From Callorhinchus milii (Eukaryota), in NCBI RefSeq assembly GCF_018977255.1, contig NW_024704742.1, positions 8,186,001 to 8,250,000 on the forward strand: DNA of 64,000 nucleotides, written 5' to 3'. Every line of letters starts with the position of its first letter. Positions within the stretch are counted from its first letter, which is position 1. Under the pieces are notes generated by a model, which was given only the letters and a program-made list of their open reading frames with translations, was not told the origin of the DNA and ran no database searches. The position numbers and the translations under genes are program-made. Below, piece by piece: positions 52,915-54,122 of this stretch.

Positions 52915-53724
52915 GACTCACCTTCAGGGTGTGTGTGTGTGTGTGTGTGTGTGACACTCACCCTCAGGCTGTGATTGTGTGTATGTGTGACACACCCTCA
53001 GGTTGTGTGCGTGGTTGTGTGTGTGTGATTCACCCTCAGGTTGCGGTTGTGTTTGTGTGTGTGAATCTGTGTGTGGTTGTGTATTTGTGTGGTTGTGTGT
53101 GTGAGACACTCACCCTCAGGCTGTGATTGTGTGTGTGTGGTTGTGTGACACACTCACCCTCAGGCTGTGATTGTGTGTGTGTGGTTGTGTGACACACTCA
53201 CCCTCAGGCTGTGGTTGTGAGTGTGTGTGTGTGTGAGACATCCTCACCCTCAGGCTGTGGTTGTGAGTGTGTGTGTGTGTGTGTGACACACTCACCCTCA
53301 GGCTGTGGTTGTGAGTGTGTGTGTGTGTGTTGTGTGTGTGTGTGTGTGTGACACACTCACCCTCAGGCTGTGGTTGTGAGTGTGTGTGTGTGTGAGACAT
53401 CCTCACCCTCAGGCTGTGGTTGTGAGTGTGTGTGTGTGTGTGTGTGTGTGACACACTCACCCTCAGGCTGTGGTTGTGAGTGGTGTGTGTGTGTGTGTGA
53501 CACACTCACCCTCAGGCTGTGGTTGTGAGTGTGTGTGTGTGTGTGTGTGACACACTCACCCTCAGGCTGTGGTTGTGAGTGTGTGTGTGTGTGACACACT
53601 CACCCTCAGGCTGTGGTTGTGAGTGTGTGTGTGTGTGAGACACCCTCACCCTCAGGCTGTGGTTGTGAGTGTGTGTGTGTGTGTGTGTGTGTGACACACT
53701 CACCCTCAGGCTGTGGTTGTGTGG

Positions 53725-53762
<38 letters not shown>

Positions 53763-54122
53763 CACACTCACACTCAGGCTGTGGTTGTGTGGTTGTGTGT
53801 GTGTTTGTGTGTGACACACTCACCCTCAGGCTGTGGTTGTGAGTGTGTGTGTGACACACTCACCCTCAGGCTGTGGTTGTATGTGTGTGTGTGTGTGACA
53901 CACTCACCCTCAGGCTGTGGTTGTGAGTGTGTGTGTGTGTGTGTGACACACTCACCCTCAGGCTGTGGTTGTGAGTGTGTGTGTGTGTGACACACTCACC
54001 CTCAGGCTGTGGTTGTGAGTGTGTGTGTGTGTGACACACTCACCCTCAGGCTGTGGTTGTGAGTGTGTGTGTGTGACACCCTCACCCTCAGGCTGTGGTT
54101 GTGAGTGTGTGTGTGTGTGTGG
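52915..54122 (-). repeat. About 25-copy, ~45-bp minisatellite CACAACCACAGCCTGAGGGTGAGTGTGT(CA)nCT
   Basis: About 25 CTCACCCTCAGGCT cores counted, with variable (CA)n spacers. Confidence 0.95.

What the first reader, a model, noticed from the sequence alone, without database searches (positions are those of the whole stretch)
52915..54122. Minisatellite that looks like an amplified DCTN1 exon end plus 5' splice site (about 25 tandem donors)
Seen: on the DCTN1 sense strand each unit reads CAC AAC CAC AGC CTG AGG|GTGAGT, i.e. HNHSLR followed by a consensus donor. The unit closest to the next exon reads CTG AAG|GTGAGT (LK), about 108 nt from the phase-0 acceptor at 52813. Known (recalled): the exon preceding this one in vertebrate DCTN1 ends ...HENSILK in phase 0. 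Inference: the exon/intron junction itself was tandemly amplified, giving a variable-number array of competing donors. It could act as U1 snRNP decoys, or give length-variable exon extensions whose frame depends on the (CA)n spacers.
Basis: partly seen in the sequence, partly recalled or inferred. Interest (0 to 1): 0.75.

Follow-up and report, generated by a model that had tools for sequence, protein, structure and literature searches.

The report
Splice-junction-derived minisatellite in chimaera dynactin intron
An intron of an elephant-shark dynactin gene is filled with dozens of tandem copies of the preceding exon's last 21 bases plus its splice donor, a rare but already known kind of repeat (as in human F7), and the mRNA still uses the genuine donor.

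Summary
The array is real. TRF finds period 44, 22.4 copies at 53086-54121, with degenerate units reaching about 52900. On the gene's sense (minus) strand there are 25 units, and 17 of 25 carry AGG|GTGAGT.

- The window is Callorhinchus milii DCTN1-like. Its transcript-derived protein reads ...SHQQTHNHSLR|AAGMRAELE.
- Two 3.9-kb RNA contigs join acceptor 52813 to ...CAT CAG CAA ACT CAC AAC CAC AGC CTG AGG. The exon's last 21 nt therefore equal the unit.
- The unit is not a dispersed satellite. All 46 exact 24-mer hits in the 991-Mb assembly lie at this locus.

Thirty-three of those hits form a second, oppositely oriented array that starts at an assembly gap.

The kind is known. Boundary-spanning minisatellites with reiterated pseudo-donors occur in human F7, IFI6, CBS, LMNB2 and PDGF (PMC1557585). 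As in F7, the contigs and deposited proteins examined show only the authentic junction; no exon extension was seen.

The upstream exon itself is missing from the assembly, so the true intron layout is unresolved. It could be one array, two arrays, or an inverted pair.

Verdict: a new member of a known kind, probably neutral, and a neat natural test of donor choice.

The parts
52898..54122 (-). Proximal minisatellite. It has 25 units of the form GTGAGTGTGT-(CA)n-CTCAC-AACCACAGCCTGAGG. The units are most homogeneous between 53200 and 54100 and degenerate towards the acceptor. The last pseudo-donor, AAG|GTGAGT, is at 52922|52921.
   Evidence: The exact exon 21-mer occurs 16 times, 12 of them followed by GTGAGT.
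52814..52897 (-). Non-repeat 3' end of the intron, with a C-rich polypyrimidine tract and the acceptor ...CCCCCTGACAG|.
   Evidence: The DNA-run contig X11 runs through it (52609-52917), while the RNA contigs stop at 52814.
52618..52813 (-). DCTN1-like exon 'N' (AAGMRAELEALPPLVVPRLSMRGEGEGGGQDPG...SQP; residues 1057-1122 of V9KA34). It starts in phase 0.
   Evidence: RNA contigs X2, X7 and X8 cover 52618-52814 with 0 differences.
51867..51965 (-). Next DCTN1-like exon (approximate, from the tblastn HSP; GGAAEVRARPAAQLLEQAAQLQQLRDTVNRIK).
50623..50718 (-). Penultimate DCTN1-like exon (approximate [33 protein letters not shown]).
50276..50419 (-). Last coding exon with its stop codon (approximate [15 protein letters not shown]...[12 protein letters not shown]).
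54123..63342 (-). Sequence between the two arrays as assembled. It holds a C-rich 17-bp repeat, TE tails, LINE reverse-transcriptase fragments (55.1-56.1 kb) and about 4 kb of TC/GA-rich satellite (59.2-63.3 kb). It holds no DCTN1 exon.
   Evidence: In one search, RVT_1 scores 20.7 and 20.9 bits, below the curated cut-off of 29.6.
63343..63367 (.). Assembly gap of 25 N.
63368..64000 (+). Distal array of the same unit in the opposite orientation. It continues to about 64996 beyond the window, with 35 intact units in all (15 of them starting inside the window). It ends ...GTGAGTGTGT and is followed by a TE tail.

Best explanation
This is a locus-specific intronic minisatellite. It arose by tandem amplification of the junction between the third-from-last intron of the Callorhinchus milii DCTN1-like gene and the exon before it. 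Each roughly 44-bp unit holds the last 21 nt of that exon (ACT CAC AAC CAC AGC CTG AGG), the first 10 nt of the intron (GTGAGTGTGT) and a (CA)n tract of variable length. It belongs to the known class of exon-intron-boundary minisatellites that reiterate the donor as silent pseudo-sites (human F7 IVS7 type). Shown: the sequence identity to the real exon end, the locus specificity, and use of the authentic exon end in mRNA. Inferred: the array started by slippage or unequal exchange between the CA-rich exon end and an intronic (CA)n tract in what was once a short intron. The 10-bp inverted repeat inside every unit may have helped, since GTGAGTGTGT and ACACACTCAC form a hairpin in single-stranded DNA. 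Also inferred: the pseudo-donors stay unused because only the authentic donor sits at the end of a defined exon (the most upstream site wins, as in F7), and perhaps because each pseudo-donor is buried in the hairpin in RNA. The array is most likely selectively neutral. Its practical effect is that it breaks the genome assembly and truncates the gene model.
For: - Array and donors.
- Gene identity: exon 52618-52813 is 100% identical to V9KA34_CALMI, and the last four exons map by tblastn.
- Exon end at protein level...QQTHNHSLR|AAGMRAELE in both deposited isoforms, V9KA34 and V9K9A7.
- Exon end at RNA level: contigs X7 (3891 nt) and X8 (3883 nt) lie on 52618-52814 and run on with CTCAGGCTGTGGTTGTGAGTTTGCTGATGG (plus strand). 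The genome-sized run X11 instead continues into the intron.
- Copy counts: the exon 21-mer is exact in 16 proximal and 28 distal units, and occurs nowhere else in the window or in 220 kb to the right.
- Locus specificity: 46 of 46 genome hits of the 24-mer are here; the control gives 0.
- Polarity: all 13 aligned vertebrate DCTN1 proteins have a homologous exon end (LKNENNxLK or LQHENSxLK) with no length difference. The lamprey-like contig has the same phase-0 intron position, a 186-nt intron and no array.
- Negative control: the next intron is also full of TG/CA minisatellites, but no k-mer (8-12 nt) spanning its own junction recurs there.
- Hairpin: RNA MFE -53.8 kcal/mol against shuffles at -43.96 +/- 3.93 (z = -2.5); DNA z = -2.89.
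- Known class and the rule that the most upstream donor is used: PMC1557585 (abstract, Introduction and Discussion read).
Against: - The real upstream exon and all exons before it are absent from the assembly. NCBI's model here has only 166 aa. Contiguity of an array with the authentic donor, the defining layout of the F7 class, therefore could not be seen.
- As assembled, the proximal array's 5' flank is not the exon, and the other array is inverted.
- The RNA evidence comes from assembled contigs, which drop rare variants, so low-level use of pseudo-donors is not excluded.
- X7 and X8 belong to one study. The X2 contig ends 2 nt past the acceptor and says nothing about the junction.
- The fold z-scores are modest, and the authentic donor would be in the same hairpin if the intron starts like the units. 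The hairpin therefore cannot by itself explain donor choice.
- Neutrality is an inference. Neither polymorphism nor conservation in other chimaeras was tested.
Confidence: 0.72

Rival explanations
1. Functional U1 snRNP platform. The 25 (plus 35) near-consensus donors recruit U1 within the intron. This could protect a long, repeat-laden intron from premature cleavage and polyadenylation, or tune splicing efficiency with copy number. The CA tracts may act as binding sites for CA-repeat-binding splicing factors (this last point is recalled, not tested).
For: Donor quality: AGG|GTGAGT matches MAG|GURAGU at 8 of 9 positions in 17 of 25 proximal and 35 of 35 distal units. The high homogeneity of the arrays could reflect either constraint or recent turnover. 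The array sits only about 85-108 nt from the acceptor.
Against: There are no binding data or expression data. Homogeneity is the normal result of concerted evolution in young minisatellites. The units nearest the acceptor are decayed. Each donor is predicted to be base-paired. The lamprey-like orthologue has a 186-nt intron with no array.
Confidence: 0.12
2. Alternative donors are used and give length-variable exon extensions, that is protein variants with inserted ...VSVSHTHTHNHSLR units.
For: In the exon's frame a 42-nt unit is open and reads VSVSHTHTHNHSLR, and ORFs of up to 139 aa run through the array. In the IFI6 and CBS minisatellites the first two pseudo-sites are also used (PMC1557585 Introduction).
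Against: Both deposited isoforms and both RNA contigs have the plain junction, with the same exon length as in the other 12 aligned vertebrate proteins. Only 5 of 24 proximal and 11 of 34 distal unit lengths are multiples of 3. As assembled, the proximal array does not adjoin the exon, so using it would retain kilobases of intron.
Confidence: 0.05
3. A structural rival that does not exclude the best explanation. In the real genome there is one continuous sense array between the upstream exon and exon N, in a short intron. The split, inverted two-array layout with 9 kb in between is then a mis-join or mis-orientation of the assembly.
For: The distal array begins exactly at a gap. The contig it belongs to is only about 68 kb long (63368-131363), so its orientation rests on scaffolding. 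All upstream exons are missing. The broken ends fit together: the distal array ends ...GTGAGTGTGT and the proximal array starts with the CA tract, which joined would make one unit. The two arrays share variant units. The orthologous lamprey-like intron is short.
Against: Both arrays have one unique flank inside an uninterrupted contig (54123 onward, and 64997 onward), so two contig-level errors would be needed.
Confidence: 0.35
4. It is a general CA-rich satellite of this genome that resembles the exon end only by chance.
For: The region and the neighbouring introns are full of CA/TG-rich tandem repeats.
Against: 46 of 46 exact 24-mer hits lie at this locus. There is 21-nt identity with the exon end at the exact splice point. 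The neighbouring intron's repeats show no such relation. One caveat: the genome search skips very common words, so its counts are lower bounds.
Confidence: 0.01

Closest known systems
Human F7 (coagulation factor VII) IVS7 37-bp VNTR (Borensztajn et al. 2006, PMC1557585; abstract, Introduction and Discussion read)
   Same: It is a minisatellite monomer made of the exon end plus the intron start, so the donor is reiterated in the intron. The pseudo-sites are silent, and only the authentic, most upstream donor is used.
   Different: F7 copies 4 nt of exon and has 5-9 repeats directly adjoining the exon, with a weak donor (UGG/gugggu). Here 21 nt of exon are copied, with at least 25 plus 35 units and a near-consensus donor. 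Each unit has an embedded (CA)n tract and a 10-bp hairpin. Contiguity with the exon has not been seen, and one array lies next to the acceptor.
Human interferon-inducible 6-16 (IFI6) intron 2 minisatellite, as described in the Introduction of PMC1557585
   Same: It has many (25) reiterated donors after the authentic one, a number similar to the proximal array.
   Different: [quoted passage not shown] No such use was seen here in the contigs or the deposited proteins.
Human CBS IVS13 (15-20 repeats), LMNB2 (100 bp x 10-15) and PDGF intron 4 (81 bp x 16-18) boundary minisatellites, as listed in the Introduction of PMC1557585
   Same: They have the same architecture class. In LMNB2 and PDGF only the authentic donor is used.
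   Different: All are mammalian, with different unit sizes. None is reported as a split or inverted array pair.
Intronic CA-repeat splicing regulators bound by hnRNP L
   Same: Each unit carries a (CA)5-20 tract right after a donor.
   Different: Here the CA tract is part of a longer junction-derived unit. No regulatory effect has been shown.

Membership tests
Exon-intron-boundary minisatellite with reiterated 5' pseudo-splice sites (F7 IVS7 type) | Head-to-tail array of 10-100-bp monomers inside an intron | tested here: met
   TRF gives period 44 and 22.4 copies. There are 25 units on the sense strand, lying upstream of the acceptor at 52813.
Exon-intron-boundary minisatellite with reiterated 5' pseudo-splice sites (F7 IVS7 type) | The monomer contains the last bases of the upstream exon and the first bases of the intron, and so repeats the donor | tested here: met
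   The exon end read from RNA contigs and from the protein equals the unit's 21 nt, ending at AGG|GTGAGT.
Exon-intron-boundary minisatellite with reiterated 5' pseudo-splice sites (F7 IVS7 type) | The first monomer spans the authentic exon-intron boundary, so the array is contiguous with the exon | tested here: inconclusive
   The upstream exon is absent from the assembly. The proximal array's 5' flank is not the exon, and the distal array starts at a gap.
Exon-intron-boundary minisatellite with reiterated 5' pseudo-splice sites (F7 IVS7 type) | The authentic donor is used and the pseudo-sites are largely silent | tested here: met
   Two of 2 informative RNA contigs (X7, X8) and 2 of 2 full-length deposited proteins show the plain junction. 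Rare use cannot be excluded from contigs.
Exon-intron-boundary minisatellite with reiterated 5' pseudo-splice sites (F7 IVS7 type) | Copy number is polymorphic (VNTR) | not tested
Dispersed or general genomic satellite | The same unit at many unlinked loci | tested here: not met
   46 of 46 exact 24-mer hits lie within C1:8239196-8250992. There are none in 220 kb to the right outside the distal array.
DCTN1 (dynactin p150) gene | Exons encode the C-terminal part of dynactin subunit 1 | tested here: met
   The exon is 100% identical to V9KA34_CALMI (Pfam PF12455, PF01302, PF26666 precomputed). The last four exons map to the window. Identity to vertebrate DCTN1 is 50-61%.

The most novel reading that the evidence does not exclude
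The assembly's layout may be real, with both arrays lying in the same pre-mRNA. In that case the two oppositely oriented arrays (about 1.2 kb and 1.6 kb of nearly identical units) would pair into a duplex longer than 1 kb. That duplex would mask all roughly 60 decoy donors at once and loop out at least 9 kb of satellite- and TE-laden intron, bringing the authentic donor close to the acceptor. The splice junction would then have generated its own intron 'zipper'. A weaker form of the idea is that array length acts as a heritable dial on DCTN1-like splicing efficiency.
Probability: 0.07. Interest if true: 0.7.

Novelty: new member of a known kind. Interest (0 to 1): 0.36.

Why it matters
It confirms, from raw sequence plus public RNA, that a splice junction can be copied dozens of times inside its own intron without disturbing the mRNA.

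It also extends a class so far described in a handful of human genes to a cartilaginous fish. My searches found no paper on this locus or on such arrays outside mammals. That covers only the open library.

Here the decoys are near-consensus donors, and as assembled they lie much closer to the acceptor than the authentic donor does. That makes a sharp natural test of 'most upstream donor wins' against 'nearest donor wins'.

There is a practical side too. The array coincides with an assembly break. The reference gene model at this locus is a 166-aa stump of a protein of 1225-1286 aa, and this should be flagged for annotation.

Tried and rejected
- **Whole-protein genome search.** Searching the whole protein against the window's genome gave no usable answer twice. 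Parts of the protein were used instead.
- **'Paralogue' on C109.** I first read the C109 match as a chimaera paralogue. rejects that: its clean exon matches are 92-100% identical to a protein named Lampetra fluviatilis dynactin, against 41-90% identity to the chimaera protein. I use it only as an outgroup.
- **Solved structures.** A comparison of the C-terminal part with solved dynactin p150 chains was not carried out. Homology of the exon end rests on the 13-protein alignment instead (13 of 120 listed hits, hand-picked for taxonomic spread).
- **RNA runs.** No listed holder is on record as RNA. X7 and X8 are taken as RNA because their contigs stop at both exon borders and continue into spliced sequence, while X11 runs into the intron. 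Only 4 of 14 listed runs were laid.
- **What was laid.** Copy-number variation and the joins at 54122 and 64997 are therefore untested.
- **X2 contig.** It ends 2 nt beyond the acceptor and is uninformative.
- **Flank comparison.** Both arrays are flanked by tails of the same TE family, but in an order that does not make a palindrome. There is no evidence for an inverted segmental duplication of the flanks.
- **Next intron.** Its repeats are not junction-derived.

Full report
**1. Observation**

The minus strand of 52600-54400 shows a head-to-tail array. Its unit reads GTGAGTGTGT-(CA)n-CTCAC-AACCACAGCCTGAGG. TRF reports 53086-54121 with period 44, 22.4 copies and 75% matches, plus a degenerate continuation at 52940-53061.

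Splitting the array on the anchor CTGA[AG][GT]GTG gives 25 units. Their donor 9-mers are:
- 17 AGG|GTGAGT
- 4 AGG|GTGAGG
- 1 AAG|GTGAGT (the last unit, at 52922|52921)
- 1 each of AGT|GTGAGT, AGG|GTGAAT and AGG|GTGTGT

Unit lengths run from 34 to 80 nt, with a mode of 44, and nearly all are even because most length variation lies in the CA tract. The three or four units nearest the acceptor are decayed. The last pseudo-donor lies exactly 108 nt from the acceptor AG (52815-52814), and the exon starts at 52813.

**2. The gene**

The exon 52618-52813 translates to AAGMRAELEALPPLVVPRLSMRGEGEGGG.... It is 100% identical to UniRef V9KA34_CALMI, dynactin subunit 1 of Callorhinchus milii, 1225 aa. That was the only hit among 181 candidates. 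A tblastn of the protein against the window finds only its last four exons, residues 1056-1225, all on the minus strand.

**3. The decisive test**

The protein reads ...LLLQQIQALRLSLSHQQTHNHSLR|AAGMRAELEALPP. A second deposited isoform, V9K9A7 (1286 aa), has the same junction.

At RNA level I laid 4 of the 14 listed runs on 52560-52990:
- Contigs of X7 (3891 nt) and X8 (3883 nt) cover 52618-52814 without a difference. They then continue into letters that are not in the window. In the gene's sense these read ...C CAT CAG CAA ACT CAC AAC CAC AGC CTG AG(G)|GCT GCT.
- The genome-sized run X11 instead continues through the acceptor into the intron, up to 52917.

The real upstream exon therefore ends in the 21 nt ACTCACAACCACAGCCTGAGG. 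That string is exact in 16 proximal and 28 distal units, and the mRNA's splice point is the unit's AGG|GTGAGT. Upstream of these 21 nt the exon (CAGCAA) differs from the units (CACAC). The mRNA thus comes from the authentic exon, not from a unit.

**4. Not a general satellite**

The 24-mer CACAACCACAGCCTGAGGGTGAGT has 46 exact hits in the 991.5-Mb assembly, and its reversed control has none. All 46 lie within 12 kb at this locus. The tool warns that counts of common words are lower bounds.

As a local control I looked at the next intron. It is also packed with TG/CA minisatellites, but no k-mer of 8-12 nt spanning its own junction recurs there.

**5. Polarity**

I aligned 13 of the 120 listed homologues, chosen by hand for taxonomic spread, out of 1605 with E <= 0.001. 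The exon end is homologous and of the same length in all of them:

| Species | Exon end |
|---|---|
| Heterodontus, Stegostoma | LKNENNQLK |
| Hypanus | LRTDNTRLK |
| Latimeria, lamprey | LKNENNRLK |
| Mammals | LQHENS(I/T/V)L(K/R) |

In every case the next exon starts AAQM... or GAQMKA... A lamprey-like contig in the same assembly has the intron at the same phase-0 position (...CGC CTT AAG|gtacaa). Its intron is 186 nt long and holds no array. The exon end is therefore ancestral, and the array was copied from it.

**6. The second array and the assembly**

Thirty-three of the 46 hits form an array of the same unit on the opposite strand. It starts directly after a 25-N gap (63343-63367) and runs to about 64996. 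It has 35 intact units, all AGG|GTGAGT, plus two broken ones, and it is followed by a TE tail.

The two arrays share variant units such as ...CACATACAACCACAG.... Their broken ends also fit. The distal array ends ...GTGAGTGTGT and the proximal array starts with the CA tract.

None of the upstream exons exists in the assembly:
- There is nothing in the window.
- There is nothing in the next 20 kb or the next 220 kb.
- Two protein parts find only the lamprey-like contig C109.
- The exon's unique 24 nt have no match with up to 2 mismatches, apart from one unrelated site on C3.
- NCBI's model on this 139-Mb contig is a 166-aa stump starting at MRAELEALPP.

The contig to the right of the gap is only about 68 kb long.

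The true layout therefore remains open. The options are one long sense array in a short intron, a split array, or a genuine inverted pair. I put about one chance in three on the two-array inverted layout being an assembly artefact.

**7. Mechanism**

Shown:
- The sequence relation between unit and exon end.
- Locus specificity.
- Use of the authentic junction in 2 of 2 informative RNA contigs and 2 of 2 full-length deposited proteins.

Inferred:
- *Origin.* The array arose by slippage or unequal exchange between the CA-rich exon end and an intronic (CA)n tract in a formerly short intron. TE and satellite insertions or a rearrangement came later. LINE RT fragments lie at 55.1-56.1 kb, though their RVT_1 scores of 20.7 and 20.9 bits are below the curated cut-off.
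- *Hairpin.* Every unit contains a perfect 10-bp inverted repeat, GTGAGTGTGT/ACACACTCAC. Three units fold into three such hairpins. The RNA MFE is -53.8 kcal/mol against -43.96 +/- 3.93 for shuffles (z = -2.5, 2 of 200 shuffles as good). For DNA, z = -2.89. This may favour replication slippage and would bury each pseudo-donor in RNA. It cannot alone explain the choice of the authentic donor.
- *Silence of the pseudo-donors.* This fits the rule established for F7, in which the most upstream functional donor, at the end of a defined exon, is selected and downstream identical sites do not compete (PMC1557585).

**8. Comparison with what is known**

The Introduction of PMC1557585 lists minisatellites whose first monomer spans an exon-intron boundary:
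- F7 IVS7: 37 bp, 4 nt of exon, 5-9 copies
- Interferon-inducible 6-16: 25 pseudo-sites, the first two also used
- CBS IVS13: 15-20 copies
- LMNB2: 100 bp x 10-15
- PDGF intron 4: 81 bp x 16-18

The chimaera array shares the defining content (exon end plus donor, reiterated) and the splicing outcome. It differs in several ways:
- It copies 21 nt of exon.
- Its donors are near-consensus.
- Each unit has a built-in CA microsatellite and a hairpin.
- It has at least 60 copies.
- Its position as assembled is next to the acceptor rather than next to the donor.

Contiguity with the authentic donor could not be tested. My paper searches found nothing on this locus, though they cover only the open library.

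**9. Verdict**

The suggestion of exon extension is not supported, and the U1-decoy idea is untested. This is a new member of a known kind, of moderate interest as a natural splice-site-choice experiment and as the cause of a truncated gene model.

Noticed in passing
G000 contig C109 (loci L013, L014, L019-L022): An unplaced contig of this chimaera assembly (GC 38-40%) encodes a DCTN1. Its clean exon matches are 92-100% identical to a protein that NCBI names Lampetra fluviatilis dynactin subunit 1 (P0053). They are only 41-90% identical to the C. milii protein. It looks like lamprey-like foreign DNA in the assembly rather than a paralogue.
   Followed up: partly
window 50276-52813 (-): The reference annotation has only a 166-aa 'dynactin subunit 1-like' model here (XP_042195634.1), and an older 115-aa one. 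The transcript-derived proteins have 1225 and 1286 aa. About 1055 codons of the gene are missing from the assembly.
   Followed up: yes
window 59200-63342: About 4 kb of TC/GA-rich low-complexity satellite. It translates as endless SLSHTLSH... on the minus strand and ends at the 25-N gap.
   Followed up: no
window 51969-52608: The next DCTN1-like intron is almost wholly made of CA/TG-rich minisatellites with periods 53/81, 89 and 19. None of them derives from its own splice junction.
   Followed up: yes
window 41013-42338 (-): Two exon-like ORFs with scavenger-receptor cysteine-rich (SRCR) domains (PF00530, E 2.5e-08 and 3.9e-18) lie downstream of the dynactin gene. This is a neighbouring SRCR-domain gene whose identity I did not determine.
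   Followed up: partly
window 42494-44367: Long G-rich/C-rich tandem repeats that read as GWGGGIGWGRVCHGVGRGYRVGEGMSRGGEG... and PHPxP... in long open frames on both strands. They are probably another minisatellite block.
   Followed up: no
window 54262-54400 (-) and L011 1740-1890 (+): Tails of the same TE family (...CACAGACACGATGGGCCGAA.GGCCTCCTT.TGT...TTCTATGA) flank both arrays. The order does not form a palindrome.
   Followed up: partly
window 52814, run X2: The X2 contig (580 nt) stops 2 nt past the acceptor, whereas X7 and X8 read through into the upstream exon. A graph fork at the junction (unspliced RNA or another junction) is possible, but it cannot be told from contigs.
   Followed up: no
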